NCBI GenBank assembly: GCA_040437565.1 | Contig: JBDOQK010000005.1 | Coordinates: 372,001-436,000, forward strand | Length of the DNA stretch: 64,000 bases | Reading direction: 5' to 3' | Source of the DNA: Albugo candida | Taxonomy: Eukaryota | In this document: piece by piece, positions 6,366 to 55,595 of the stretch | Numbering within the stretch: the first letter of the stretch is position 1 | How the letters are laid out: each line of letters begins with the position of its first letter | Position numbers and translations under genes: made by a program | Notes under the pieces: generated by a model | Database searches by the model: none | The model's input: only the letters and a program-made list of their open reading frames with translations | What the model was told of the DNA's origin: nothing

Positions 6366-7433
6366 TTATGATGACTCATGAAGTTTGGCATCGATATCTG
6401 CGGCGTGTAAGAGGATTCGCTGCACAACAAGACTGGAGACGGTGTCGAGTCCTTTTGTCAGAACATCCAAGTCTCTTTCACCTTGCCAGATTTGTATGGT
6501 TGCTTTCTTGATATAAAGATTGTTCTCTTCAAACTCATCCAAACCATCTCCTTCTACGTAGTGATTTTTTATATCGGCATGATCTTTGTCCAAAAATGGG
6601 ATCGCCGCAACCACTTTTAGAATCTACAAAGACATGGTGAGCCTCATTAAAATCCAACATTTGTAAGATGTGCAATCAATTCTACTTGCATCATTCAGAT
6701 CGTCGATCTCCTCTGTCGACAGTTTCTCGAAGACAGTTGCATTATGTTCGACGTTCGTTGATGTTGTTGAAATATTTCGGTCAGCAACTTCACTTTGTTC
6801 TCTTCCTTCTACATTATGCTGCTCGTCATACTCCATATTCACATCAACGATCGCATCTCTAGTCTTTGGCTTCCCCCAGCTTCCTTCTTCCCATTTGAAT
6901 GCCGACGGTAGATTACATTGTTTGAAAAAAGTACTCAGAGCTTCTTCTACAAGAGTGTGACACGCTCCACCTGTCATTCTGAGTTTTAACTTTACCTCTT
7001 GGAATGATCCCGGAGTTGTAGTCTTCAAGTAAAATGGTAGCACGAGATTTCGTGCGGAAGGGTACTCATGACTGCTCTGAATTGCACTTAAGATCCCCAT
7101 CAATTCTTTGTAGGATTCTTCATTCACGCGTTGCTGTTCGGGATACTGTCCAAATAAATCGGGATGTGTGCGTAGATATAATTTTCGTAAAGTTGACTTC
7201 AGCATGGGAACCTCCTCCAGGTTGTCCTTCTTCATTTTACGCAAATTCTTGCGTCGTAAGGCTCGTTCGCTCATCTTTGTTCGTACATTCATCTGCCAGC
7301 CATATGTAGCCGTAAGAAAGCGACTTCCATTTGCTATGCTTTTTCGGGTCTCCTGGACGTATGCATTTCCTATTTGATGTAATCGCAGACTGCAGAAGTT
7401 TCCGGTAAATTGCCTCAATGATCGAATGGTCAT
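6366..7433 (-). CDS. TCAIM/DUF4460-like protein, probably mitochondrial; 2 exons
   Basis: LRKLYLRTHPDLFGQYPEQQRVNEESYKEL resembles the DUF4460 J-like HPD motif. The R/S/T-rich N-terminus resembles a presequence. A GC-AG intron at 6624-6689 joins the ORF to 6366-6623. Confidence 0.7.
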
Positions 7434-9346
7434 AGGTTGAGAGGTTGACTTTTCCGAGATGTGCAATCTCGAGTAAGTACAGTATTATCTGCAGGAATCT
7501 CACCGAATGTATTGATTATTTTTCGCACCGCATCAAGTTCCTTTTCTTCAACCAAGTGGAATAGCTTGACAAAGAAAACGAATCGCCTAAAGCAGAGATT
7601 TAAGCACATATCCGCGTGAAGAACCACAAAATTCTCGTTGTGACTGTGATACAAATGAGCATACACGCGAAAAAGTCGTTTCATGACCGTGCAACATAAT
7701 TCCATAAAGCTTTTCTTCGCAATCTCATCATAGCGACCAATTTCAGGAAAAGTTGCTGGACCGGAAAATTCTTTCTTGACCCATGAGAGTGAACGCGAAA
7801 TGTACTGGCTTGCAGGCAGCGAGATAGGAGCTCTGGCACTGCTAAAGTGAGCGTTTTGTTGCTGAGGATCAGTCCATAAGTAAGTATAGCATGGCCCTGC
7901 GGACATTTTTGGACAATTTCGTGTGGTACAAAACTCCGAGATAGTGTCATACAATAAGCTGACATCGTCAGAAAAATCAGTGACATGTACAAATACCCAT
8001 TCATCCAAGCTATAGCCCTCGGGAAGTTGAACACACTCGATAACGTCGATACTATTCATCATGGAATGTTCAATCAGTTCGTGCGGTGCTTGCGTTTGTG
8101 TCCGATATGAAGATCCGTTTAGATCCTGAATACATTGAGATTCACCACGACCACTTTTTGGCATCACCGGTAAGGTATTGAGATTGACCTCCGTCTTTAA
8201 GAAAGTAGGTGGAGCCAGCGGATTGTGTGTGGTCGAACATATGTTGGTGACGACTGCTGTTCTTTCCTCAACATGGTATTGCTTTTCCTGCAACGCCATC
8301 TCCAACGTACCTCTGTGGTGTATCACGGCCGAATTTGGGGATAAGCTCCGATTTACACTAATAGTGCTGTAATGATGGTCAAAAGTATCTGTTTGGAGTC
8401 GTAGATGCACACAAAGCATTTGTTGCGCCGTCAAAAGCTTATGAAGAGCAACTCTGATAGAAATGTGATCATGGAAGAAGAGATTTCTTACCTTGCTTAT
8501 CCCCGGCTCGATCACACTGTTAACATCTTTTGTCAATATAATGGAAATGTCGGATCGAAGAGAGTCATCTAATGCTTCGTGACGAGCTAGAGCGGCCATA
8601 TACTTGATACGATTCTACCCATATAAGATAACACAAGGCGTTGCAGGGCAAATGATACAGTATACTCGATGTAAACGAGCTGTCTCGCATCGATTATCAC
8701 ACTTTATCTCGCCGATTTTCTTTTGATAACGATATATTCTGTCAAGTGCACTTTTACGATGCTCGTTTCGAAGCTACAAACTCAATCAAAAAATACAATG
8801 ATACAAGTAATCGGCTTGAATTGGACTGACTTTCAGAACTGGAATTTCCAAAAGCGTCGCCTGCAACGAGCCGATGACATTGTTCTGAATCTGAGATATC
8901 AATTGCTCTATACCATTTCGTCGTTCTTCAATCTAGATGTTTTGTTCAGAATATAATCAATGCGGGTAACTTGGTGCAATCCAGAGCATACCTCAACGAG
9001 TTCTATGTTTGACTCAGCGAGATCGAGCATGCGGCGAATATTACAGCTCGAATCAGTCATATCTATCTCAATCAAGAACATAGAATTTTTAATGGCGTAT
9101 GCCACGTGCTTGAATTCTAAGACTCTAACCCAATATGGCCTGGCAGTATTTTGACCAGTTCTGAATCATGCCACGAAGTCGTAACTCAAGACCATCCAGT
9201 TGTGTAATCAGCACCAAAACTCCAGACGCTTTATTCAATGACTCATTTCCATGATACTTTGAATCTAATTCTGAGTCGCTTGTCGATGTATTTTTTGATT
9301 CACTTGCGCATGCTGCCGCCGAGCCGTGCAGCAATTTTCGCAGCAT
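7430..9346 (-). CDS. MOB1/phocein-family kinase activator with an N-terminal BAR-like helical domain, multi-exon
   Basis: MOB core: VQLPEGYSLDEWVFVHVTDF, FCTTRNCPKMSAGP, KRLFRVYAHLYHSH. Upstream exons 9346-~9172, 9116-8992, 8932-8831 and 8773-8666 splice in frame into 8614. The last three introns are phase-0 GT-AG of 59, 57 and 51 nt. Confidence 0.75.
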
Positions 9347-9413
9347 CGACTTTGTGTCCCTAAAAGATCGATATTTTACCGGTACATACTGTCGATTTAG
9401 ACCTTTTGGTAGA

Positions 9414-12371
9414 ATGAGCATTCTTGGCCACAGAGCACGCAATACGCATGAGAGCGATGCACCAGAGAATTATGTCCCTGGTCTTGGCCGAGGCGCAGTT
9501 GGGTTTACGACGCGATCTGATATTGGCCCCGCACGAAACCCACTTGCACCCGAAGGACTAGCTGCAGCCGTTGCGGGAGCTGGCCCCTTCCCCCCCATTG
9601 CAATGGCTCGTGGGCGAGGACGTGGGATGGACGTCGCTCCCAATGATTTCTTGCTTCCCATCTCAGCAGGAAGAGGTTCCGGGACGGCAGGAATGGGAGG
9701 ATTTGGTCGAGAAACCGATGAGAATGAAGATTTCGGAGATTATAGTGAGAGTAATTATGATGAGTTCAGTGGGTACACTGGTACAGGTCTGTTTCAGGAT
9801 ACACCATATGATAAGGACGATGAAGAAGCTGATACCTTGTATGAAATGATCGACGAACGCATGGATTCGCGGCGAAAACGGAGACGAGAAATGAAAATAC
9901 TACAAGAAGTGAAGAAAGCCCGACAAGAACGCCCAAAAATTGCAGATCAATTTCTAGATCTAAAGGAGTCATTGAAAACAGTAAGTGACGAGCAGTGGGC
10001 CCAAATTCCTGACATTGGAGACCGATCATTGAAGCACAAAACCAATACGGCTATACAAATAAGAAATCAAATGTTTGTTCCGACACCAGACCATTTAATA
10101 GGATCAAGCGCTGGTCTTCACCTGAATAAGGATGTATCATCGGGGTCTATCACTCCATCTATTCTGGGAGGCATCGAAACACCAGGAACAAGCACCTCTG
10201 TGACAGGATTAGCAGAAGCTCGAGGAGCTGTACTTTCTCTGAAACTAGATAAAATGTCTGATTCGATAATGGGTCAGACTGTCGTCGATCCAAAAGGATA
10301 TCTGACCGACTTGAACTCTTTGAAAATAACAACTGACGTCGAAATTGGCGATATAAAAAAAGCTCGCTTATTGCTCCACTCTGTGACAACGACAAATCCT
10401 AAGCATGGACCTGGCTGGATTGCTGCGGCAAGACTTGAGGAAGTTGCGGGAAAGATTGTGCAAGCACGAAAATTGATACGTCAGGGATGCGAGTCTTGTT
10501 CCACTCAGGAAGATGTATGGTTAGAAGCAGCACGACTTCAGAGTCCAGAAAACGCAAAGGGTGTTTTGGCGAAAGCTATTCGTCATGTTCCAGCCTCGAC
10601 CAAAGTATGGCTTCAAGCAGCAAAGTTGGAGAATGATATCGACCTAAAAAAGCTCGTACTGAGGCGTGCCTTGGAATTTTTACCCACCTCTGTGAAGCTT
10701 TGGAAAGCATTGATTGAACTTGAAGATACGGAGGGAGCACGCTTGCTGCTCGGACGTGCTGTGGAATGTGTTCCACAATCAGTCGATCTTTGGCTTGCTC
10801 TGGCGCGACTAGAAACATATGAAAATGCAAAAATGACGCTCAATAAAGCTCGTTTTGCGGTCCCTAGCGATCCTATGATATGGATTACAGCCGCAAAACT
10901 AGAAGAGGCGCAAGGGAAATCTATTGAAATGATTGAGCGAATACTCCGAGCAGCAGTCAAGTCGTTAAAGAAGCATCAGGTAGAAATGAGTCGTGATTCA
11001 TGGTTGAAAGAAGCTGAAGCATGTGAGAAAGTGGGTGCTATTTTAACGTGCGGTGCAATCGTTCGTACGTGTTTGGACATTGGTGTTGAAGCCGACGATA
11101 GGAAACGAACATGGATGGATGACGCTGACACATGCATTACGCACAAGGCTTTGCATGCTGCAAAAGCTATCTACGCGCATGCTCTGAGTATATTTCCTGG
11201 TAAGAAGTCAATCTGGTTGCGTGCGATTGCACTTGAAAAGCAAATCATATCGGAGAGGCAAACATCCGATGCAAATTCGTGCTCCGATAAAGTGGATACA
11301 GCAGTAATCGGGCAACTACTTGATCAAGCAGTACGCTGTTGTCCGAACGCAGAAGTCTTGTGGCTCATGTCAGCAAAAGAAGCCTGGACAAATGGTTCTG
11401 TTGAGAACGCGCGGTTGATCTTACGTCAAGCATTCAGTGCGAATCCAAACAGCGAAGCGATCTGGCTCGCAGCAGTGAAACTTGAATGGGAAAACGATGA
11501 GATTGAGCTGGCTAGAGCACTTCTTGCTAAAGCTAGAGCACACGCACCTTCCGCCCAAGTCTGGATGAAATCTATTTTACTCGAACGTGAGGTAGGCACT
11601 GCACGTTTGGAGGAAGAAAAACTCCTGAAAGAAGGTGTATCAAGATTTCCAGATTCACCAAAGTTGCATATGATGGCTGGGCAATTTTATGAGCATAGTG
11701 ACCCACCTGACTACACTGAAGCAAAACGGAGATATCGAACAGGAATTCAGCAATGTCCAAAATGCATGCATTTGTGGATTCTATCGAGTCGACTGGAAGA
11801 AAAAGTGACCGGCGTGACAAAGGCAAGATCCGTATTAGAACTTGCACGTCTAAAATCTCCGAAGAACGATGTATTGTGGCTGGAGTCCATACGCTTGGAA
11901 GCCCGTGTTGGAAATAGCAAAGGTCAAAATATGCTATTGTCCAAAGCGCTTCAGGAATGTCCAGACTCTGGGATTTTGCTGGCAGAATCAATCGAAATTG
12001 CGGCAAGGCCTCATCAAAAACGAGCTTCATTTGCTGCACTGAAACGAAAAGACAACGATCCTTCAGTGTGCTTGGCAGTTGCTAAACTTTTTTGGCAGGA
12101 ACGAAAGTACACCAAAGCTCGGAAGTGGCTCGAAAGAACAGTTCAACTTCAATCAGAATTTGGTGATGGTTGGGCATATTACTATTTGTTTGAAACAAAG
12201 CACGGAATTACAACAAATGCTCCCGAAAAAATACTGAGAAGGTGCATCGAGGCTGAACCCAAATACGGAGAACACTGGACACAATTTTCCAAGCAGACCG
12301 AGCATCGACGGAAGCCGATAGCGGATATTATAAAGCTTGTTAGTTCACGTATACCTCACCCACATATATGA
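9414..12371 (+). CDS. PRP6: Pre-mRNA splicing factor PRP6 (U5 102-kDa HAT/TPR protein)
   Basis: APENYVPGLGRGAVGFTTRSDIGPAR; QTVVDPKGYLTDL; IGDIKKARLLL..TNPKHGPGWIAAARLEE; HAT repeats; AEPKYGEHW. ATG at 9414. Confidence 0.97.
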   Translation: MSILGHRARNTHESDAPENYVPGLGRGAVGFTTRSDIGPARNPLAPEGLAAAVAGAGPFPPIAMARGRGRGMDVAPNDFLLPISAGRGSGTAGMGGFGRETDENEDFGDYSESNYDEFSGYTGTGLFQDTPYDKDDEEADTLYEMIDERMDSRRKRRREMKILQEVKKARQERPKIADQFLDLKESLKTVSDEQWAQIPDIGDRSLKHKTNTAIQIRNQMFVPTPDHLIGSSAGLHLNKDVSSGSITPSILGGIETPGTSTSVTGLAEARGAVLSLKLDKMSDSIMGQTVVDPKGYLTDLNSLKITTDVEIGDIKKARLLLHSVTTTNPKHGPGWIAAARLEEVAGKIVQARKLIRQGCESCSTQEDVWLEAARLQSPENAKGVLAKAIRHVPASTKVWLQAAKLENDIDLKKLVLRRALEFLPTSVKLWKALIELEDTEGARLLLGRAVECVPQSVDLWLALARLETYENAKMTLNKARFAVPSDPMIWITAAKLEEAQGKSIEMIERILRAAVKSLKKHQVEMSRDSWLKEAEACEKVGAILTCGAIVRTCLDIGVEADDRKRTWMDDADTCITHKALHAAKAIYAHALSIFPGKKSIWLRAIALEKQIISERQTSDANSCSDKVDTAVIGQLLDQAVRCCPNAEVLWLMSAKEAWTNGSVENARLILRQAFSANPNSEAIWLAAVKLEWENDEIELARALLAKARAHAPSAQVWMKSILLEREVGTARLEEEKLLKEGVSRFPDSPKLHMMAGQFYEHSDPPDYTEAKRRYRTGIQQCPKCMHLWILSSRLEEKVTGVTKARSVLELARLKSPKNDVLWLESIRLEARVGNSKGQNMLLSKALQECPDSGILLAESIEIAARPHQKRASFAALKRKDNDPSVCLAVAKLFWQERKYTKARKWLERTVQLQSEFGDGWAYYYLFETKHGITTNAPEKILRRCIEAEPKYGEHWTQFSKQTEHRRKPIADIIKLVSSRIPHPHI

Positions 12372-48128: not shown

Positions 48129-51100
48129 TCACTCTTGTACCGACTCTTCAGATTTCATTCTTAAACTCGAAATAAGCGATAAGATATGTACTGCAGTACC
48201 CCAAATATTACGATGCTTCTGGGGATGTGATTTATGCAATATTTCTTCGAGAGGCTTAACGACCGCATCCGAAAGCGAATTTCGTTCCGAGATAAACTTC
48301 TCATGTGATGACAGCATGCTTGTGAGCTGTGATTCCACCAAAAGCAAGGATGCTTTCACCAGGGCGCGCTCGTATAAATCTGGTTTGGTGTCCTTGATAT
48401 CGACAAAAAAACCTTCGGAGCACTGCGATACATTGGACATCCAAATTTCGATGCACAGCATGCCGAAATGACTACCCGAAATCTCCTGAAGCGCGCTACT
48501 TGACGACGCTCTCAAGCTTCCCTCAAAAGCCTCTACTATCTCTTTGCAAATATCATTAGAGACTGCAAAGGGATGTTTGTACTTGTCTATGATTTCCTTC
48601 AGCTGAGCAGCTTTGAAAGGCGCAATATCGTCTGACCAAGCCGAGGTCAGCGTAGTTTGTATCCGACGTGCCAAGCTGAACGAGTACATAGGCTTTCTCA
48701 TTCCACTTTCCTGGTACATTAAGTGATAATGAGCGATTGAAGAGGTGGCTAGCCAATGCGGAAGCAGTCCCAGCGTTGCAGTTGTGATCTGATCTTCCAC
48801 GGTACACTCCAGAAATGTTGTAATTTGGTTTGGCTCACTTCCCCAGTAAGTATCAGTAATATGGTGATGATCTGAAAACAACGAAGCACATCGTGATTTG
48901 CTAAGTATACTTACTGCATGAAGCAAGATATCGCACATTCTGAACCGCTGTGTCAAGGGTATCGCGATAGCGGGATGACTCGAAAACGCTGGTGGGCAGC
49001 ATAGAACCACACGGAAAATCGATCGTTGATGTGGGGTCCAATGGTCCGGACATTTTACCATCACCAGATCATGTAGAATCTGTATGGGTGGCGAATTATT
49101 GGACAGTATATTAGGAACACTCAATATTGACAACAGTAGCTTGTGCGTCGCTAAGCGAACAGAAGTGTTCGAGCAATGGTTCAATAGAGCCACTGCAACC
49201 CAAATGATTTGGGGGCATAAAGCCAATTTCGATGCCGGTATACCAGAGACCATGGAATCTAACGTGGAGAGGCATTCCATGACAAGCGCCTTACTTGAAG
49301 CACGTAGTAGCGTAAGGCTCATATCTGGCGGATTATTAGAGACATTTATCTGTTGATTTTCGCAAAGTACAAATTGATCCAGTGACTTGTGAAGCAACTC
49401 CAAAATCGTAAGCACCATTTTTGCTTCAAATGGACGTCGTAACATTCTTTGCATCCGAAGAGCAAACTGCGTCGCTTGTTTGACCTGTAATTGCGTAGAT
49501 TCGCTATTCCTCACGCTAATTATCTCACGCGTGGTCTGAATGACTTGATTCATGCAAATTTGATTCCAAATTAATTGCGTGTGCATCGGAATGACCGCAA
49601 CCAAAGAACGTATGAGCTGATCAAATCGATGATCAAAAGCGTTCAAGCCTTGGCCCTTCGCGTCACATCGGTCACTAATCAAAATTTGAAGCGATTGTAG
49701 CCAGTTACTCTGGGACCTCATCAAATGGCGAAGCACTAGCAGACATTCTTGCAGTATCGTTTCGCAATTATTGCTTAAACTATCGCCTCCGAAATCGCTG
49801 GATTCGTGATTTTGTAAGTTGCAAAAATCGGATAAAGTTGCTTTGCGGCTTCGAGGCTTTTTGGTTTGCGATGTTACTGGGTAAGCATCTGATCCGAAAG
49901 TAGTAGCATTCTGCATTATCTTTTGATCCGATTGTAAGATGAAAAACAAGACGCCAATTATCGAATGCAACAAGAACACTCCAAATTCCACTTCCACAGT
50001 GAGCTCACCAGAAGTAAAATCCGCAAAAAAACAATTGTTGTTAACAGTCATCAGTCTGATCAAGGCCACAGCATCGTCAAATATACCAAAAAGTTCTGGT
50101 TGTTCGGGTATATTATCACTTTCGTGTTGCCAAGACTTGGTCTGCCTAACTTGAACTATTGAGATTAGACCGATCATGACATTCTTTGCATTATCTTCCA
50201 CCCGTCCAAGCCAAGCGACAAGTTCTCTGCCTATGGGAAACTCGTCCACATTTCGAGAACGTTCAAATAGAAACTGTAGAACGATAATTAAATTGCTTGA
50301 AAACTCCGCTCCCGTCCCATTCATTCGCTTAGGAAAAGCAAGGGATTGCCACAAGTCCTGAAGTTCTTTGACAAAGACTGTGCCCAGCTGTAGTGTTACC
50401 TGAAGAAAGAGCCGTAATAACACTCCTTGTCTCGCCTGTTGCTTCATAGCGATACAATTAGCCCAACATGGCAAAGCATTGAGTAACTTTCGCTGCTGGC
50501 AGGAGTCGCAACACAGTATAAATTTACCGATTGCACGGCACATATCATACGCATTTTTTTCTCCGAAAGCGTCACAAAGGAGCGCTGAGATACTTCTTGT
50601 CTCGGTACAAGAAACTATGTGACTAATCGATGAATCGACATGTAACGTTGCTGCTGAGCTTGACGCGTGAAAAAGTCCTACAGACCTTTGATGTTGTATC
50701 AGGAAATCCGCCATGTTCCAAGCTTGCTGCCGTATAATCCAATTATGCTGATCTCCTGCGTGTAGTATACAGGCAACTTTTATTACGCAATGCGTGTCAT
50801 CTGATGATGAGAAAAACTCTGGATCGTTCTCTGTTTCAGGCTCAGAATTGTTTGGCACAATCATTTGTGATAGTCTTGTCAAGGTATAGAAATACTCTAT
50901 TGCAATCGCATAAGCTTGACTTGAAGCTTTGTCAAATAACGGGGATGCTGAGTAGAGGCACTTTTTTGTCGCACTATTTAGTATGTGATTTGCCTTTGAA
51001 TGAACTGTGACCAGTTTTTGAAGCATGTAATGGCAAAACCATCCCTGCTGGGAGCAATCATAGAAATGACACGCTTGGTCCGCGAAACATTGGTCGATTA

Positions 51101-54100
51101 TCTCTAAAAGCTTGAGAAGATTTTCCGATCCCAACATATTGTCCCCGATCAGCTTCCTGACTCGTTTCTGATTGCTTACCATTCGAGCAAGAGACATGAT
51201 AACCCACTCTTGAGTCAAAGCACCCAGAATATCTATTTTGTTGCCAAGGCGCACGGAACAGCTGCTATAGCTGGTTGGGGTATTAGCGTCGTGAAGTTGA
51301 TTCTCTTCCAATCTGACATCTAAAACTATCCAAGATAGATAGAGTCGAATATTCTGGCCGTCTTCTATTGTTGAATCAACCCATGTTTGTACGATATAAT
51401 TATCTTGATCTTTATCAGAAGCTTTGTCTTGTGACTCGTTCATTGGAAGTCGTTTACTATCTTGATGCTGTGCAATAGAGTCTCCGGCATTTCGGTGGCT
51501 GCATGCTGACAGCTTTGTGAGCACGGAAAAGCAGCCTTGATAATCTAATGATACTTCCGATTTGCTTGGTCCATGGTCGACTGCAAGTCGGTCCTCGATT
51601 TGAAGCAAGGATGACAAAATCGCACAAAAGTCCTGTCTTATCATGGACCGAAGGCAGTGAAATTCGGCGGTGTCATTACTCTCCTCTTCTAAATGAGGCG
51701 GGGGGATATCGTGCAGCCTCTCACAACATTGTGCCAGAAGAGTTGAGTAACGATCTCGAAGTTGTGAGCTCCACATTTCTTTGACCACAATCCATTCTTT
51801 CGGGCTACATAATAACTTTACGAGACGAATAATTATAAGGCGAAACGTTCGTATAAGAGCCCACCGCAAGCGGAGTTGTTTTTTAGTAAGGTCCTCAGTA
51901 TCTAAACTTGTTCCTTCCCGGTCATGTCCTTTTCTGCGGGTCGACTGTCTCTGATTGCCTAACGGTGCTGCGTTCGTGGCGCCTGATGTACCGCCATCAA
52001 ATCGTGTATCAAATGCCGGCAATGCTTCTGCCTCAACTTCAACAAGACAGTCAAGAACTCTGTGCGTGAGCGGTATACTAACGTTTCCAAGAGCCAAAAT
52101 CGCCACTCTTTGTATTCTCGCGCTGTCGCTCTTCAATACCTGACAGAGTTCTCTTATGCAAATAACTTGACAATGCATCGTTTCACCACTATCTGCATGA
52201 TCCTGATTGCCTGCACTATATGTGTCCACATCCTGAGTGTCGTAATTGCAGTCTACTCTCAACGCGTTCGTCGTCGCTAGCAAGACGATATTTCCCCAGT
52301 ACCTGACCTTATCGTCTCCTAGTTTATTTACGATTTGAGTTGAGCTCAAACTCTCATCCTTGAGCATCGTGGATACTCTGACAAAAAAGCCATGAAAATG
52401 ATCCCAAATAATCGATGAGATGGCTGGCTTCACAAGACCAAACAGTGCGAAAATATGTCCCATATATTGAGATATGACAAAGTAGGGAATTTGACTGCCT
52501 AAATCGCGTAAAAGGTGCTCATAGTTGTTTGAAGAAACTACAAAGCGACTTAAATTGCAGAAAAATTCGTTGGTTGGAATCGGATCCAAAAGTACTTGAT
52601 AAATGCTTGTTTTATCCCTGGTGCTCCACGTGCAAAATTGTATCTGGGCAATTAGTCTAAGAAGCTTTAGCGTAGATCTTCGCAATTCGACACAATCGGC
52701 CATGAGTAGGAAGACTCCAAGTGCTTCAATGCGGTCGAATGAACTTGAGAGGGAAAAATGGTCGGTCTTACTTTGATGTCGGGTGAAAAAAGACATGAAA
52801 TTTGTGTCTTCCAGCAGTTTCACAAGTAAAAGGACCAAAGAATGTGCAGCATGTGCATTCAAAAAGAGATCTGCTGTCAAATATCCAGATAATTCCTCGA
52901 CCAATACTTGGTATAGCACTCCTAAGACAGTAACTATTTTCTCCGATGATGTGACCGAGCAAATTTCCTTGGAAATGGTGCATACTGCACTACTAGCTTC
53001 CGTTCGAACAAAGGCGTTTTGATTACAAGTTGCACGGACGAGAATCTGAACCCACACTCTCTGAGCAATACGCGTCTCCCGATACAAACTTGTAAAACAC
53101 TGGATCGTTGTACAGAACAATTTATATCCTAGCTCCAAGGCTCCTACCTTGTTTTTGGAATTTGTGACATACAGACCATAGTGCTCGATTGTGTGTCGTA
53201 AGGGTTCAGACACCTGCTGCCCTCCCAAAGTGTTGTACGAATTGTTTCCGCAATGGGTGCTGCAATCCATCAAAATTTGATCTACTTTACCGGTAAAACT
53301 AGCCTGGCAAATCTTGTGAGCGTTCGCAAGCGCACGCTTTTCTAGCATTCCTGCCCATAGTAAGGGTTGAATGATGGTGTCTTCAGAAATTCGATCTGTG
53401 TATTGCCAAGACGGCGAATGCATGATTTTGTGATATGAGTGTAGGCTCTGGAGCCCAATAAGTCTTCTCTCGTCAAGTGGATTTATCGATTCGGCTACAA
53501 GCCGGTGGACATGTTCACCCGCACCTTGATAGCAAATTATCGCACACGACATCTGCGCAAGAATCGAGAAGCTTTCGTGATTCAAAGTAGTGCCTCTCCA
53601 TACTCCATCACATAGCCAACATTGCATTCGGTTAAGGCACTCTATGCACTCCTTCTCAAAAGCTGGTTGATCCAAAATGATACTTCGCTGGAGAACCTGA
53701 ACAAACAGCATCCCAGTGCTCCTTATCAGTACTGCGGGATCGGAAATCGCTTCAGCATTTTTTTCATGAAAATCATACTCCCAACTTGAAAAGCTGGCTG
53801 ATGGGTCTGAGCTTGCAAATGTCCGCAACTGGATGCGTGTAATCTGATTGAAGTCTTCGTTACAAAATCGTTCAAAGACATTGTTAGGTGCTAGACACAT
53901 CACTGCTGCGCGCAGAGCCCAAGCTGGGCCTTGCAAAAGCCTTTTCTTTTTTGATAATCTTAACCCAATTGCGTTTGAACAGTGCTGCCTTGCAAGAGAA
54001 TGCAAATCAAGCAGACACACACACCACTCAGATACGTTCGCTGATACATTAAATATAGCTTTGCAATACCACAACGTTATTTGTCGGTGATTTGAAGTTT

Positions 54101-55100
54101 GGCAGTACCACTTATAAAGCTTTTGAGAAAGCGTTTGTGATTCATTTTCCAGAATTCTTGAGAGTAATCGCAGTGCAGCAAGTCGAACAAGATAGCAGTG
54201 CGATTTCAATGTTAGGCTCTGCAAATCACGCAAGAAACTCGCAACTCTTTTCACTTTCCCAGCTACTCTTGGTCCATATTCTGGTCGCTGTGCATCGAGT
54301 GCCCAGCAATCGTTGACAAGAAATGGATCGAAATTGATGCTCGAAAAACACTGAATCATGTAGCACAATAGGTATGAATCACAAGTCTGCACAGTATTCA
54401 ACAGTGGCTTCAATTGTGCACCTGAAAAGGTCTGTAAACTACAGCCAAAAGTTCCATTTATGGACTGATAAAAGCGATCGTGTATCAGTTGTACTGAAAA
54501 CTGGGAAACGTAGCCAAGAACTTTTTTCCACATAAGAGCAATGTTATCAAGCAATCTCTCATTCTGTGTATCTTTGTATCCTGTCCGATCAACAAGCATC
54601 GATCGTGATGCTTTGACGCTAAACAGTCGATTAAATGGGCTACTTTTTGATCTACACCGTGCTTGACAGCGCTTTATCATGTCGTAATGAATGCAAAATA
54701 CTCGGAAACAGGTATCAATGATTGCCTTCAGCATACCTGTTGACCAAAAATCGCTAGTTTCCATCGTTTCAACAGAGGTACTAACGTCATGGTGTCTTTG
54801 ACCTACATAGGATTCGAAGTAAGCGATCAAAACCTCCGCCACGATATATTTGGCAATGTGAGTTTCATGTAGTGAAGGTTTCGATTTCCCTGCATGTACG
54901 CTCCACTCCAATAGAAGAAGAATTCCATTTTGCCGCTGTTGTTTGCTCATATTCATCAAAATGGTAAGAACTTGATCCAAGGCTTGACGAATATTATCAC
55001 ATCGAGGAGGAATCAGCTCATGAGCATGATTTGCAGTCAATACTTGCAATTGATGCAGTAGGAGATCTTGGATATGGAGCTCCACTTGTGATGTACTCAT
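48129..55100 (-). CDS. Furry/MOR2/TAO3-like large ARM/HEAT cell-morphogenesis protein (divergent)
   Basis: 2323-aa Leu-rich helical ORF. ERRLIGLQSL, AILALGN, LNALPCW, ELQDLWQSLA and PQIIWVAVALL resemble MOR2-PAG1 blocks. Confidence 0.65.
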   Translation of the reverse strand: MSTSQVELHIQDLLLHQLQVLTANHAHELIPPRCDNIRQALDQVLTILMNMSKQQRQNGILLLLEWSVHAGKSKPSLHETHIAKYIVAEVLIAYFESYVGQRHHDVSTSVETMETSDFWSTGMLKAIIDTCFRVFCIHYDMIKRCQARCRSKSSPFNRLFSVKASRSMLVDRTGYKDTQNERLLDNIALMWKKVLGYVSQFSVQLIHDRFYQSINGTFGCSLQTFSGAQLKPLLNTVQTCDSYLLCYMIQCFSSINFDPFLVNDCWALDAQRPEYGPRVAGKVKRVASFLRDLQSLTLKSHCYLVRLAALRLLSRILENESQTLSQKLYKWYCQTSNHRQITLWYCKAIFNVSANVSEWCVCLLDLHSLARQHCSNAIGLRLSKKKRLLQGPAWALRAAVMCLAPNNVFERFCNEDFNQITRIQLRTFASSDPSASFSSWEYDFHEKNAEAISDPAVLIRSTGMLFVQVLQRSIILDQPAFEKECIECLNRMQCWLCDGVWRGTTLNHESFSILAQMSCAIICYQGAGEHVHRLVAESINPLDERRLIGLQSLHSYHKIMHSPSWQYTDRISEDTIIQPLLWAGMLEKRALANAHKICQASFTGKVDQILMDCSTHCGNNSYNTLGGQQVSEPLRHTIEHYGLYVTNSKNKVGALELGYKLFCTTIQCFTSLYRETRIAQRVWVQILVRATCNQNAFVRTEASSAVCTISKEICSVTSSEKIVTVLGVLYQVLVEELSGYLTADLFLNAHAAHSLVLLLVKLLEDTNFMSFFTRHQSKTDHFSLSSSFDRIEALGVFLLMADCVELRRSTLKLLRLIAQIQFCTWSTRDKTSIYQVLLDPIPTNEFFCNLSRFVVSSNNYEHLLRDLGSQIPYFVISQYMGHIFALFGLVKPAISSIIWDHFHGFFVRVSTMLKDESLSSTQIVNKLGDDKVRYWGNIVLLATTNALRVDCNYDTQDVDTYSAGNQDHADSGETMHCQVICIRELCQVLKSDSARIQRVAILALGNVSIPLTHRVLDCLVEVEAEALPAFDTRFDGGTSGATNAAPLGNQRQSTRRKGHDREGTSLDTEDLTKKQLRLRWALIRTFRLIIIRLVKLLCSPKEWIVVKEMWSSQLRDRYSTLLAQCCERLHDIPPPHLEEESNDTAEFHCLRSMIRQDFCAILSSLLQIEDRLAVDHGPSKSEVSLDYQGCFSVLTKLSACSHRNAGDSIAQHQDSKRLPMNESQDKASDKDQDNYIVQTWVDSTIEDGQNIRLYLSWIVLDVRLEENQLHDANTPTSYSSCSVRLGNKIDILGALTQEWVIMSLARMVSNQKRVRKLIGDNMLGSENLLKLLEIIDQCFADQACHFYDCSQQGWFCHYMLQKLVTVHSKANHILNSATKKCLYSASPLFDKASSQAYAIAIEYFYTLTRLSQMIVPNNSEPETENDPEFFSSSDDTHCVIKVACILHAGDQHNWIIRQQAWNMADFLIQHQRSVGLFHASSSAATLHVDSSISHIVSCTETRSISALLCDAFGEKNAYDMCRAIGKFILCCDSCQQRKLLNALPCWANCIAMKQQARQGVLLRLFLQVTLQLGTVFVKELQDLWQSLAFPKRMNGTGAEFSSNLIIVLQFLFERSRNVDEFPIGRELVAWLGRVEDNAKNVMIGLISIVQVRQTKSWQHESDNIPEQPELFGIFDDAVALIRLMTVNNNCFFADFTSGELTVEVEFGVFLLHSIIGVLFFILQSDQKIMQNATTFGSDAYPVTSQTKKPRSRKATLSDFCNLQNHESSDFGGDSLSNNCETILQECLLVLRHLMRSQSNWLQSLQILISDRCDAKGQGLNAFDHRFDQLIRSLVAVIPMHTQLIWNQICMNQVIQTTREIISVRNSESTQLQVKQATQFALRMQRMLRRPFEAKMVLTILELLHKSLDQFVLCENQQINVSNNPPDMSLTLLRASSKALVMECLSTLDSMVSGIPASKLALCPQIIWVAVALLNHCSNTSVRLATHKLLLSILSVPNILSNNSPPIQILHDLVMVKCPDHWTPHQRSIFRVVLCCPPAFSSHPAIAIPLTQRFRMCDILLHAVSILSKSRCASLFSDHHHITDTYWGSEPNQITTFLECTVEDQITTATLGLLPHWLATSSIAHYHLMYQESGMRKPMYSFSLARRIQTTLTSAWSDDIAPFKAAQLKEIIDKYKHPFAVSNDICKEIVEAFEGSLRASSSSALQEISGSHFGMLCIEIWMSNVSQCSEGFFVDIKDTKPDLYERALVKASLLLVESQLTSMLSSHEKFISERNSLSDAVVKPLEEILHKSHPQKHRNIWGTAVHILSLISSLRMKSEESVQE

Positions 55101-55595
55101 CCAAAGGGATCAATTGATCGCTTCCGACCAGTTTGTGGATAGATGGTGGCAGCCTCCTATTTTTAGTTCTGTTTACTGCCTTCCGAGCCGACAGGTACTA
55201 AAAAAAACACGAGCTTCGACGTTGACAATAGTCGTGAGCAGACAATACCGGTCGGTTCAGATAAGTGGCGCTAGTTGTCATGTCGATATCAAGAAGAGGT
55301 CTGAGAAAAAAACGTCAACTCCAACAAACGAAAGCCCTTATCGAGTTGTATTGTCTATCTCCGTATAATCCATCGACAAGGCTGCATCAATAGGTTTTCG
55401 AATTTCGACTGTGAGACACTACTGGATCCTCCGAGTGCTTCCCATCAGATACGATATAAGGAATCGTGATCTCAGAATCTTTTACATCGACTCTATTCCA
55501 GGTCGGTGGCATTTTCTCAGCGCAATGTACTACGCGAGCCATTGAACTCAAGTAAGCACATCAATAAAGCCTGGTGGAACTCTCGTCTTCCCAAG

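What the first reader, a model, noticed from the sequence alone, without database searches (positions are those of the whole stretch)
7430..9346. Hidden exons fuse a BAR-like domain to a MOB kinase activator
Seen: four short upstream exons, which look like unrelated ORFs in the track, splice in frame into the MOB ORF. Introns 8933-8991, 8774-8830 and 8615-8665 are all phase-0 GT-AG. The joined text ..QIQNNVIGSLQATLLEIPVLK-LRNEHRKSALDRIYRYQKKIGEIK..ARLHRNRIKYMAALARHEALDDSLRSDI..VIEPGISK..LLTAQQ follows the amphiphysin/Rvs BAR helix 2-3 pattern. The MOB Zn ligands (C,C,H,H) are intact. Known: MOB proteins are normally single-domain NDR/LATS kinase co-activators. Inference: this MOB is targeted to curved membranes, an architecture I do not recognise. 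The exon 1 donor is ambiguous.
Basis: partly seen in the sequence, partly recalled or inferred. Interest (0 to 1): 0.72.

Follow-up and report, generated by a model that had tools for sequence, protein, structure and literature searches.

The report
BAR domain fused to MOB kinase activator
This oomycete gene joins a membrane-curvature (BAR) type domain to a MOB1-type kinase co-activator in one protein, a combination conserved across oomycetes but so far labelled only as an ordinary MOB1.

Summary
On the minus strand, 9346..7430 is one six-exon gene with five GT-AG introns and a 542-aa product. Every exon junction aligns without a gap to the Albugo laibachii orthologue (333 of 531 positions identical) and to Phytophthora, Pythium and Thraustotheca orthologues. 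An unspliced read-through aligned to that orthologue opens gaps exactly over the three disputed introns.

RNA contigs show introns 9063-9129 (new; it settles the "ambiguous exon 1 donor") and 8933-8991 spliced out. The same contigs run unspliced through 8774-8830, 8615-8665 and 8438-8491. This is unexplained.

The N-terminal ~200 aa is a divergent amphiphysin/BIN-type BAR domain:
- Pfam's BAR model misses it.
- An orthologue profile hits solved amphiphysin BAR domains (E 6e-7) and BAR-SH3 proteins in an exhaustive search.
- An AlphaFold model of the A. laibachii orthologue is a three-helix bundle whose best structural match is BIN1 (Z 14.0, 190 residues).

The C-terminal domain is MOB1-class, with the zinc site intact. 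Dimerisation, membrane binding and kinase binding were not tested. Eight literature searches found no description of a BAR-MOB protein.

The parts
7430..9346 (-). Whole coding region of the BAR-MOB gene. Six exons, 542 aa, ATG at 9346-9344, TGA at 7432-7430.
   Evidence: The N-terminus beginning MLRK matches the start conserved in orthologues: M1 is invariant and L2, R3, K4 are nearly invariant.
9130..9346 (-). Exon 1 (coding part), aa 1-72 plus one base.
   Evidence: RNA contigs cover 9130-9248 only.
9063..9129 (-). Intron 1, 67 nt, GT-AG, phase 1.
Evidence: Skipped in RNA contigs of runs X1 and X2 (table 5).
8992..9062 (-). Exon 2.
8933..8991 (-).
   Evidence: Skipped in RNA contigs of X1 and X2. 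X1 also holds the unspliced form.
8831..8932 (-). Exon 3, 34 aa.
   Evidence: 28 of 34 residues identical to the A. laibachii orthologue. In a 48-aa query running into the intron, homology stops at the donor: 80% identity over 73% of the query.
8774..8830 (-). Intron 3, 57 nt, GT-AG, phase 0. Holds in-frame TGA and TAG.
   Evidence: 19 of 19 in-frame residues are unaligned to the orthologue. Invariant K130|L131 flank the junction. NOT removed in the RNA contigs of X1 and X2.
8666..8773 (-). Exon 4, 36 aa.
   Evidence: 24 of 36 identical to the orthologue.
8615..8665 (-). Intron 4, 51 nt, GT-AG, phase 0. Ends in an in-frame TAG.
   Evidence: 17 of 17 residues unaligned. Invariant R166|N167 flank the junction. 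NOT removed in the RNA contigs of X1 and X2.
8492..8614 (-). Exon 5, 41 aa.
8438..8491 (-). Intron 5, 54 nt, GT-AG, phase 0, no stop in frame.
   Evidence: If kept, it adds 18 aa that none of the 5 orthologues in that alignment has. 16 of 18 residues are unaligned. NOT removed in the contigs of X1 and X2. A 206-nt contig of RNA run X6 ends exactly at 8437, which is a weak hint only.
7430..8437 (-). Exon 6: end of the BAR domain, the linker, the MOB domain and the stop.
8348..9241 (-). BAR-like domain, aa ~36-237 (interrupted by the five introns).
   Evidence: Helices 36-85, 91-156, 162-193 and 197-237 in models of the A. laibachii orthologue. Window numbering is the same up to about aa 318. 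Profile and fold matches to amphiphysin and BIN1.
8105..8347 (-). Linker of about 80 aa, poorly conserved, predicted disordered.
   Evidence: pLDDT below 50 for residues 233-321 of the orthologue model. Gappy columns in A1.
7532..8059 (-). Mob1/phocein domain (PF03637), MOB1 class.
   Evidence: Pfam E 2e-50, 171.6 bits against a cutoff of 27, ORF residues 186-361. Human MOB1A 5twg_A, E 2.6e-41.

Best explanation
Window 9346..7430 (minus strand) is a single six-exon gene of an Albugo-like oomycete. It encodes a 542-aa two-domain protein. From the N-terminus it has: a short conserved start (MLRK...); about 30 disordered residues; a divergent amphiphysin/BIN-type BAR domain (aa ~36-237, three long helices); a disordered linker of about 80 aa; and a MOB1-class Mob1/phocein domain with its zinc site. 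It is the orthologue of A. laibachii F0VZ30 and P. infestans PITG_01816. The fusion is conserved in all four oomycete orders sampled.

Shown here:
- One conserved reading frame across all junctions.
- Homology of the N-terminal domain to BAR domains, by profile and by predicted fold.
- An intact MOB1-like domain.

Inferred mechanism. The BAR part dimerises into the usual elongated dimer and sits on curved, acidic membranes. The flexible linkers then hold two MOB domains there. Each MOB domain binds and co-activates an NDR/LATS-family kinase, so kinase activity is localised to sites of membrane remodelling. Candidate sites are cytokinesis-like cleavage of sporangia, septation and tip growth.

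My confidence in the architecture and in BAR homology is about 0.9. My confidence in the membrane-recruitment mechanism is about 0.4.
For: Gene model:
- Five GT-AG introns give an open 542-aa frame.
- The alignment to orthologues is gap-free at every junction, with 333 of 531 positions identical to the A. laibachii protein.
- The window model keeps 15 of 15 invariant N-terminal residues and 64 of 71 invariant residues overall, taken from 16 orthologues.
- The unspliced read-through places gaps exactly on introns 3-5.
- Introns 1 and 2 are spliced in RNA contigs of X1 and X2.

Fusion is real elsewhere:
- Orthologues of 422-554 aa come from Phytophthora spp., Pythium oligandrum and Thraustotheca clavata.
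- Whole proteins lie on short contigs: 460 aa on 1668 nt, 525 aa on 1800 nt, and the 534-aa P. infestans protein on five contigs of 1889-2041 nt.

BAR homology:
- The profile of full-length orthologues hits amphiphysin 4atm_A at E 4.8e-7 and BIN1 at 2e-3.
- The N-terminal-only profile gives 6e-7, 2.7e-6 and 7e-3. Among the 6 sequences reported at E<=10, nothing else scores below 0.1.
- The exhaustive search of 1.84 billion representatives returned 31 hits at E<=1e-3. I scanned 15 of them with Pfam. Four carry Mob1_phocein and 5 carry BAR above Pfam's cutoff (64-97 bits); 4 of those 5 also have SH3, and one is named amphiphysin.
- hhalign against those BAR proteins gives probability 98.8 and E 6e-17 over 189 columns.
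- The protein atlas search returned BAR families for 10 of its 10 best hits with a family.

Fold (A. laibachii orthologue residues 1-231, pLDDT 79):
- Helices at 32-85, 91-156 and 162-230.
- All 7 Foldseek matches at E<=1e-3 are BAR domains.
- VIA-align's best match is BIN1 2fic_B: Z 14.0, rmsd 2.7 A, 190 of 201 residues.

MOB domain:
- Pfam 171.6 bits.
- C79, C84, H161, H166 and D63 are conserved in the alignment to human MOB1A. Their roles come from passages of PMC2684140 and PMC7096357.

Basic residues: the invariant residues of the BAR part are mostly basic (R136, K149, R163, R166, K170, R177) and flank the helix 2-3 hairpin. They align with the basic stretch of amphiphysin.
Against: - RNA contigs of two runs (X1, X2; one study) run unspliced through introns 3, 4 and 5, although the same X2 contig has introns 1 and 2 removed. 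Introns 3 and 4 hold in-frame stops. That RNA would encode only about 130 aa plus a short tail.
- Pfam's BAR model gives no hit at E<=10 in 0 of 7 full-length orthologues. It reaches only 19.8 bits, against a cutoff of 28.5, in one fragment.
- The BAR part of the window protein is near neutral: pI 7.67, with 26 K+R against 25 D+E.
- No confident N-terminal amphipathic helix is predicted. Residues 1-35 have pLDDT below 50.
- Both structure models are of the A. laibachii orthologue, not of the window's own protein.
- Long helical bundles give high structural scores easily. The tool's own note puts the caution line near Z 13.
- MOB1A E51 is Y here. I recall E51 as a kinase-contact residue, but no call verified that.
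- Dimerisation, lipid binding and kinase binding were not tested.
Confidence: 0.8

Rival explanations
1. The BAR-derived domain is real but no longer senses or binds curved membranes. It serves only as a dimerisation or protein-docking module, for example for a small GTPase as in arfaptin. The protein is then a dimeric MOB scaffold rather than a membrane adaptor.
For: The domain has near-neutral net charge, pI 7.67. No confident N-terminal amphipathic helix is predicted. Arfaptin, APPL1 and ACAP BAR domains score close to BIN1 in the fold search, Z 12.2-12.7 against 14.0. The sequence is too divergent for Pfam's BAR model.
Against: The residues that stay invariant across four oomycete orders are mainly basic and cluster at the helix 2-3 hairpin. 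They align to amphiphysin's basic stretch. The closest sequence relatives are membrane-binding amphiphysin/BIN-type BAR-SH3 proteins.
Confidence: 0.3
2. In this species the locus gives two products, or a mostly unproductive transcript. The RNA seen keeps introns 3-5, so translation from the first ATG stops inside intron 3, giving a BAR fragment of about 144 aa. The MOB part, if made, would start at an internal ATG at 8599. The fused protein would be absent, or a minor, regulated isoform.
For: A single X2 contig (2779 nt, depth 81.5) has introns 1-2 removed but runs uninterrupted from 8932 to 7300. The X1 contig 7490-8934 does the same. No spliced branch was reported at introns 3-5, whereas X1 shows both forms at intron 2. 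All three retained introns are multiples of 3. An ATG follows at 8599 in the MOB frame.
Against: Contigs keep the dominant path and cannot show that a spliced form is absent (tool text). The same contig also runs on into the next gene, so it is not one clean mRNA. The intron-coded residues have no counterpart in any orthologue, while the exon edges are invariant. All 15 invariant BAR residues are kept, which would not be expected for a dead 5' half. Both runs are from one study.
Confidence: 0.12
3. The upstream exons are a chance set of in-frame ORFs, or a separate unrelated small gene, and the resemblance to BAR is only that of any long helical region.
For: Pfam finds nothing in the four upstream ORF pieces. 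Helical bundles match many folds at Z 9-11.
Against: Orthologues in four oomycete orders carry the same N-terminal domain in the same protein as MOB. Profile E-values to amphiphysin of 6e-7 do not depend on fold. The exhaustive search returns bona fide BAR proteins.
Confidence: 0.02

Closest known systems
Amphiphysin / BIN1 / BIN2 / Rvs167-type BAR proteins (BAR followed by SH3)
   Same: An N-terminal three-helix domain of about 200 aa. Significant profile matches to amphiphysin and BIN1. Best structural matches are amphiphysin, BIN1 and BIN2. The FP/IP-x-(I/L)K motif and the following basic stretch align. The BAR domain is followed by a disordered linker and then a protein-binding domain.
   Different: The C-terminal partner is a MOB domain, not SH3. 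The sequence is below Pfam's BAR threshold. No confident N-terminal amphipathic helix is predicted. Dimerisation and membrane binding are untested.
Canonical MOB1 (human MOB1A/B, yeast Mob1)
   Same: Mob1_phocein domain at 171.6 bits. Closest solved relatives are MOB1A/B at E 2.6e-41, well ahead of yeast Mob1 and Mob2 at about 1e-27. With the orthologue profile, phocein scores only 1.8e-8. The zinc ligands, D63 and the KR..R motif (K153, R154, R157) are conserved.
   Different: Mob proteins are described as about 210-240 aa, in passages of PMC2684140. This one carries about 320 extra N-terminal residues, including a folded BAR domain. Position E51 is Y. The MOB1 N-terminal regulatory segment, with the threonines I recall as phosphosites, is not alignable.
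Database orthologues: A. laibachii F0VZ30 (CCA14045.1), P. infestans PITG_01816, P. nicotianae PPTG_00976, Pythium oligandrum TMW57185.1, Thraustotheca clavata OQR97112.1
   Same: The same two-domain protein. The A. laibachii protein shares 333 of 531 aligned positions with the window model.
   Different: They are named uncharacterized, Mob1/phocein family, 'Maintenance of ploidy protein mob1', 'MOB kinase activator-like 1' or 'Kinase A-anchor protein'. None of these names mentions BAR. PITG_01816 is listed as 'Kinase activator MOB1' in S3 Table of PMC9584435.
Mob1-Dbf2 acting on the F-BAR protein Hof1 in yeast cytokinesis
   Same: A functional link between the MOB/NDR kinase module and a BAR-superfamily membrane protein at the division site (abstract of PMC3639042 as listed).
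   Different: In yeast they are separate proteins in a kinase-substrate relation, and the BAR is of the F-BAR type. Here a classical BAR is covalently joined to the MOB subunit.

Membership tests
Pfam PF03114 BAR (curated model) | Score at or above the gathering cutoff of 28.5 bits. | tested here: not met
   No BAR hit at E<=10 in 0 of 7 full-length orthologues, and none in the window's exon pieces. The best result is 19.8 bits in the P. megakarya fragment P0047. I therefore do not file it as a PF03114 member by Pfam's own rule.
BAR-domain superfamily (amphiphysin/BIN/Rvs type), by homology | Statistically significant sequence relationship to proven BAR domains. | tested here: met
   The orthologue profile against PDB sequences gives amphiphysin 4atm_A at E 6e-7, 3sog_A at 2.7e-6 and BIN1 2fic_A at 7e-3. 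No non-BAR hit scores below 0.1. The exhaustive search returns proteins with Pfam BAR at 64-97 bits. hhalign gives probability 98.8, with the caveat that the target set was picked from hits of the same profile.
BAR-domain superfamily | An elongated antiparallel three-helix bundle of about 200 residues. | tested here: met
   The AlphaFold model of the A. laibachii orthologue has helices 32-85, 91-156 and 162-230 with a kink at 194-196, and pLDDT 79. All 7 Foldseek matches at E<=1e-3 are BAR domains, with TM 0.40-0.73. VIA-align gives BIN1 at Z 14.0, rmsd 2.7 A, 190 residues. This was tested on the orthologue, not on the window's own sequence.
BAR-domain superfamily | Homodimer forming a curved (crescent) module. 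| not tested
   The two-copy job for complex prediction was never accepted. The queue was full and the tool then became unavailable.
BAR-domain superfamily | A basic membrane-binding surface, and lipid binding or tubulation. | tested here: inconclusive
   Invariant basic residues R136, K149, R163, R166, K170 and R177 sit around the helix 2-3 hairpin. They align with amphiphysin's basic stretch. However, the domain as a whole is near neutral, pI 7.67. Lipid binding cannot be tested with these tools.
N-BAR subclass | An N-terminal amphipathic helix (H0) before helix 1. | tested here: inconclusive
   Residues 1-35 have pLDDT below 50. Only a 6-residue helix at 2-7 appears in the full-length model. 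The first four residues (M1, L2, R3, K4) are invariant or nearly invariant across 12 orthologues. The hydrophobic moment is highest for residues 1-11 (1.29) but drops after that.
Mob1/phocein family (PF03637), MOB1 class | Pfam score above the gathering cutoff. | tested here: met
   171.6 bits against a cutoff of 27, E 2e-50, covering profile positions 4-168 of 170.
Mob1/phocein family, MOB1 class | Tetrahedral zinc site: Cys79, Cys84, His161, His166 in human MOB1 numbering (passage of PMC2684140). | tested here: met
   All four residues are identical in the HMMER alignment to 5twg_A.
Mob1/phocein family, MOB1 class | Closer to MOB1 than to MOB2 or phocein. | tested here: met
   With the window ORF as query: MOB1A/B at E 2.6e-41 to 2.5e-39, yeast Mob1 at 1.7e-27, Mob2 at 7.9e-27. 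With the orthologue profile, phocein scores only 1.8e-8. No tree was built.
Mob1/phocein family, MOB1 class | Binding and co-activation of an NDR/LATS-family kinase. | not testable with these tools
   D63, needed for LATS1 binding per a passage of PMC7096357, is conserved. E55 and W56 are also conserved, and E51 is Y. The roles of E51, E55 and W56 are recalled, not taken from a call. No genome was held in which to look for the partner kinase.

The most novel reading that the evidence does not exclude
Oomycetes have hard-wired the MOB-NDR kinase module to membranes. A BAR dimer carries two MOB co-activators, so an NDR/LATS-type kinase is switched on only where membrane is being bent, for instance at the cleavage furrows that cut a multinucleate sporangium into zoospores. 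This would be a natural 'Rosetta-stone' fusion of two systems that in yeast meet only as kinase and substrate (Mob1-Dbf2 and the F-BAR protein Hof1). In addition, the selective retention of the three short in-frame introns seen in the RNA contigs would be a regulated switch that holds back the full-length protein, or makes a BAR-fragment decoy.
Probability: 0.25. Interest if true: 0.78.

Novelty: new variant of a known kind. Interest (0 to 1): 0.6.

Why it matters
MOB proteins are treated as small single-domain adaptors. Their location is set by partners and by phosphorylation. Here, a MOB1-class domain is permanently joined to a BAR domain and conserved across oomycetes, a group that includes major crop pathogens. 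That points to a direct, genetically testable route from membrane shape to NDR/LATS kinase signalling. It also gives a concrete candidate for the control of sporangial cleavage, septation or tip growth in these organisms.

There is a practical consequence too. This gene is currently read as 'the MOB1 orthologue' in expression studies; for example PITG_01816 appears as 'Kinase activator MOB1' in S3 Table of PMC9584435. That label hides half of the protein. The BAR half is invisible to Pfam, so domain-architecture surveys based on Pfam will have missed it.

Tried and rejected
- **Word-based search, N-terminal region.** I searched residues 1-190 of the 394-aa ORF. It produced 169 candidates and none at E<=0.01. 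This was a sensitivity limit of the word index, because the orthologue was found with the whole ORF.
- **Whole genome.** None is held for this window. I therefore could not search the same genome for an NDR/LATS kinase or for a canonical MOB1.
- **Earlier findings.** Two look-ups showed nothing.
- **Dimer prediction.** The complex-prediction job with two copies of the BAR part was never accepted and the tool was then declared unavailable. Dimerisation is untested.
- **Uncovered 5' region.** RNA contigs do not cover 9249-9387, which holds the ATG and the first 32 codons. A hole proves nothing, and the conserved start of the protein argues for the ATG at 9346.
- **Run X6.** This soil metatranscriptome run (share 0.07) gave one 206-nt contig, 8232-8437, ending exactly at the intron 5 acceptor. 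It is a weak hint only.
- **Run X12.** A joint 7915->8545 with 620 other letters between is a different sequence, not a splice.
- **Third word-based search.** I used the 48-aa ORF 8789-8932 with longer lengths, looking for this species' own spliced or unspliced products. It returned only the A. laibachii protein.
- **Stop-codon read-through or a variant genetic code.** I considered this as the reason for the single long frame and rejected it. Both TGA and TAG would need re-reading, the gene itself ends on TGA, and the residues around the stops have no counterpart in any orthologue.
- **A separate small upstream gene.** This was my first reading. I rejected it.
- **Literature.** Eight searches found no paper describing a BAR-MOB protein (plus the malformed). 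One search was swamped by 'bark' and 'de Bary'. The search on intron retention in oomycetes gave nothing I used.
Full report
**1. What is in the sequence.**

The region lies between two genes. Upstream is a divergently oriented PRP1/PRP6-like gene (plus strand, ORF 9255..12371; Pfam PRP1_N E 7e-48). Downstream on the same strand is a DUF4460 gene (ORF 6624..7484).

On the minus strand the 394-aa ORF 7430..8614 carries a Mob1_phocein domain (E 2e-50, 171.6 bits, residues 186-361). Upstream of it, the ORFs 8615..8773 and 8786..8932 are in the same frame as the MOB ORF. Only three stops separate them: TGA 8785-8783, TAG 8776-8774 and TAG 8617-8615. Each stop lies inside a short GT...AG segment.

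Three more introns complete the model: 8933-8991 (59 nt), 9063-9129 (67 nt) and 8438-8491 (54 nt). With all five removed, the frame is open from the ATG at 9346 to the TGA at 7432-7430 and gives 542 aa. In that script I first set the last intron two bases off. The GT and AG are at 8491-8490 and 8439-8438, and the product is unchanged.

**2. Is the spliced model real? Comparative evidence.**

A search with the MOB ORF gave 46 proteins at E<=1e-5 among 1453 candidates. The best is Albugo laibachii F0VZ30 (532 aa, 56% identity over 98% of the query). Next come Phytophthora proteins of 520-554 aa that cover 94-95% of the query.

The window's spliced model aligns to these with no gap at any of the five junctions, and 333 of 531 aligned positions are identical to the A. 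laibachii protein. In an alignment of 12 orthologues, invariant residues sit directly on both sides of two junctions, K130|L131 and R166|N167. Keeping the 54-nt intron would add 18 residues that none of the five orthologues in that alignment has.

I also ran a test that does not presuppose the introns. I aligned the unspliced single frame 8932..7433, with X at the three stops, to the A. laibachii protein. The aligner put 19 of 19, 17 of 17 and 16 of 18 intron-coded residues into gaps. Exons 3, 4, 5 and 6 aligned with 28/34, 24/36, 23/41 and 193/335 identities. A 48-aa query running from exon 3 into intron 3 matched that protein over only 73% of its length, which is the exon part. The window model keeps 15 of 15 residues that are invariant in the N-terminal domain of 16 orthologues, and 64 of 71 overall.

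Database proteins are themselves gene models, so I looked for support that does not rely on gene prediction. Several complete orthologues lie as continuous ORFs on short contigs:
- 460 aa on 1668 nt.
- 525 aa on 1800 nt.
- The 534-aa P. infestans protein on five contigs of 1889-2041 nt.

**3. RNA evidence.**

Twelve public runs hold the stretch or part of it. I laid four of them on 7300-9500.

In run X2, one contig (2779 nt, depth 81.5) skips 8933-8991 and 9063-9129. Both skipped stretches read CT..AC on the plus strand, which is GT..AG on the gene's strand. So the contig derives from RNA, and two introns are confirmed. Run X1 shows the same two joints, plus an unspliced copy of 8933-8991.

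However, the same X2 contig runs without a break from 8932 to 7300, and on for 956 more bases into the next gene. The X1 contig 7490-8934 is also unbroken. Introns 3, 4 and 5 are therefore present in these contigs.

Several caveats apply. Contigs keep the dominant path and cannot prove that a spliced form is absent. Both runs belong to one study. The X2 contig spans two genes and so is not a single clean mRNA.

Still, this is a real observation against the simple picture. In those samples the dominant RNA seems to retain three short introns, each a multiple of three in length. Two of them carry in-frame stops. I have no tested explanation. Regulated or inefficient splicing is the obvious candidate.

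A 206-nt contig of a soil metatranscriptome run (X6) ends exactly at 8437, the first exon base after intron 5. This is a weak hint of a branch point there.

**4. What the N-terminal domain is.**

Pfam finds nothing but Mob1_phocein in 7 of 7 full-length orthologues, even at E<=10. It finds nothing in the window's upstream ORF pieces either.

Profiles tell a different story:
- **Full-length orthologue profile against all PDB sequences.** Besides MOB1A (5e-74), it hits amphiphysin BAR 4atm_A (E 4.8e-7; profile 29-192 against chain 31-198), 3sog_A (1e-6) and BIN1 2fic_A (2e-3).
- **N-terminal-only profile.** I built it from seven orthologues, using typed parts that were checked as exact substrings. 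It gives 6e-7, 2.7e-6 and 7e-3 for the same three chains. The next hit, unrelated to BAR, is at 0.11. The alignment covers helix 1 to early helix 3, including the motif ...P-x-(I/L)-K... followed by a basic stretch.
- **Exhaustive HMMER search of 1.84 billion representatives.** The same profile gave only 31 proteins at E<=1e-3. I scanned 15 of these 31 with Pfam:
  - 4 carry Mob1_phocein (orthologues).
  - 5 carry BAR above Pfam's cutoff (64-97 bits). Four of those 5 also have SH3, one also has WW, and one is named amphiphysin in a mollusc.
  - 2 carry BAR below the cutoff.
  - 1 has SH3 with weak Vps5/Arfaptin hits.
  - 2 have nothing.
  - 1 has only low-complexity noise.
- **hhalign between the N-terminal profile and six of those hits.** Five of them carry Pfam BAR above the cutoff. 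It gives probability 98.8 and E 6e-17 over 189 columns. That set was chosen from hits of the same profile, so this is not independent evidence.
- **Protein atlas look-up with residues 40-232 of the A. laibachii protein.** BAR families (BIN3, Hob3) came first at 0.91. All ten of the best hits with a family were in the same family or clan. This is a lead only.

**5. Fold.**

I could not submit the window's own joined protein, so both models are of the A. laibachii orthologue.

The N-terminal 231 residues, modelled with the 7-sequence alignment, gave pLDDT 79.2. Helices run 32-85, 91-156, 162-193 and 197-230. Residues 1-35 are disordered.

Foldseek against the PDB gave 7 matches at E<=1e-3, all BAR domains: amphiphysin 4atm, BIN1 2fic, BRAP1/BIN2 4i1q, 3sog and a Galdieria BAR protein, with TM up to 0.64/0.73. 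Almost all of the first 50 rows belong to the BAR superfamily in the wide sense.

VIA-align, which does not depend on Foldseek, ranked BIN1 2fic_B first: Z 14.0, rmsd 2.7 A, 190 of 201 residues. Next came APPL1 (12.7), arfaptin (12.5), the Galdieria BAR protein (12.3) and AMPH-1 (12.2). The tool warns that helical bundles can reach about Z 13 without being related. The fold result alone would therefore be only suggestive. It carries weight because it agrees with the sequence-profile result.

The full-length model (16-sequence alignment, pLDDT 64.5, pTM 0.38) shows the same BAR helices (36-237), a disordered stretch at 233-321 and the MOB fold from 319 to 515. There is no confident contact between the domains.

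**6. The MOB domain.**

The window ORF aligns to human MOB1A (5twg_A, E 2.6e-41) over chain residues 25-212. C79, C84, H161 and H166 are identical. These are the zinc ligands named in a passage of PMC2684140. D63, which a passage of PMC7096357 describes as needed for LATS1 binding, is also kept. So are K153, R154 and R157, which I recall as the phosphopeptide-binding residues, though no call confirmed that. E51 is replaced by Y here, and by Y or C in orthologues. MOB1A/B score far above yeast Mob1 and Mob2, and above phocein. The domain is therefore MOB1-class.

**7. Distribution and what is in print.**

Named orthologues come from four orders:
- Albuginales: A. laibachii.
- Peronosporales: many Phytophthora species and Nothophytophthora.
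- Pythiales: Pythium oligandrum, [Pythium] brassicae and Globisporangium ultimum (a fragment).
- Saprolegniales: Thraustotheca clavata.

Outside the orthologue group, the exhaustive search found the N-terminal domain only in ordinary BAR proteins.

The public names are 'uncharacterized', 'Mob1/phocein family', 'Maintenance of ploidy protein mob1', 'MOB kinase activator-like 1' and 'Kinase A-anchor protein'.

Eight literature searches found no description of a BAR-MOB protein (plus the malformed). Individual papers add the following:
- A 2007 survey describes Mob proteins as about 210-240 aa. It mentions combinations with NB-ARC, F-box and kinase domains, but not BAR (passages of PMC2684140).
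- A 2020 review has no occurrence of 'oomycete', 'Phytophthora', 'Stramenopil' or 'BAR domain' (PMC7761452; term search only).
- PITG_01816 appears in S3 Table of PMC9584435 as 'Kinase activator MOB1'. It is higher in polyploid than in diploid P. infestans strains: log2 1.15, FDR 8e-4, RPKM 7.3 against 3.3. The main text counts 'MOB1 kinase regulators' among mitosis-related genes (passage).

I could not check whether InterPro's structure-based signatures already flag a BAR superfamily domain on these entries.

**8. How it most likely works.**

What is shown is a conserved two-domain protein: a BAR-homologous three-helix domain, a flexible linker and an intact MOB1-like domain.

The rest is inferred from what the two families are known to do. 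The BAR domain would dimerise and bind curved acidic membranes through its basic hairpin region. The residues invariant across the four orders are mostly basic (R136, K149, R163, R166, K170, R177) and lie around the helix 2-3 turn. Each MOB domain would bind and co-activate an NDR/LATS-family kinase. The result would be kinase activity confined to sites of membrane remodelling.

The yeast precedent is that Mob1-Dbf2 regulates the F-BAR protein Hof1 at cytokinesis (abstract of PMC3639042). That makes a cytokinesis-like role plausible, such as sporangial cleavage or septation.

Three points count against the membrane part: the near-neutral net charge of the domain (pI 7.67), the lack of a confident N-terminal amphipathic helix, and the complete absence of a dimer or lipid test.

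**9. Verdict.**

Two are seen spliced in RNA, and three are supported only by comparison and are seen unspliced in RNA contigs. The functional inference remains open.

This is a new variant of known kinds: a domain combination not described in the literature I could search. It is conserved across oomycetes and hidden from Pfam-based annotation. The proteins themselves are already in public databases.

Noticed in passing
window 8438-8830 (introns 3-5): In RNA contigs of runs X1 and X2, the two 5' introns (67 and 59 nt) are removed. The three introns downstream (57, 51 and 54 nt, all multiples of three, two with in-frame stops) are kept in the same contig. This could be selective intron retention or an assembly effect.
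   Followed up: partly
window 7430-7436, minus strand: The TGA stop of the BAR-MOB gene overlaps an ATG (ATGA) that is in frame with the downstream DUF4460 ORF 6624..7484. One RNA contig of X2 runs across both genes. The true start of the DUF4460 gene was not determined.
   Followed up: no
window 9346-9414: The start codon of the BAR-MOB gene (9346, minus strand) and the first ATG of the divergent PRP1/PRP6-like ORF (9414, plus strand) are only 67 nt apart. RNA contigs of the PRP6-like gene begin at 9388-9396. The shared promoter region is therefore extremely short.
   Followed up: no
window 48129-55109, minus strand: A 2326-aa open frame has no Pfam family at E<=1e-5. It is the largest ORF of the window and is unexplained.
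   Followed up: no
window 7880-7915 and 8545-8577, run X12: A 964-nt contig matches two short pieces of the gene at 90-95% likeness, with 620 other letters between them. A second run (X2) shares the same loose ends at 8545 and 8577. It is probably a related sequence from another organism or a paralogue.
   Followed up: no
orthologues P0005, P0016, P0018, P0022, P0025, P0026: Several database gene models of the orthologue in Phytophthora, Nothophytophthora and Pythium lack parts of the BAR region, or carry odd insertions at the positions of the window's introns. This suggests mis-predicted splice sites in those annotations.
   Followed up: no
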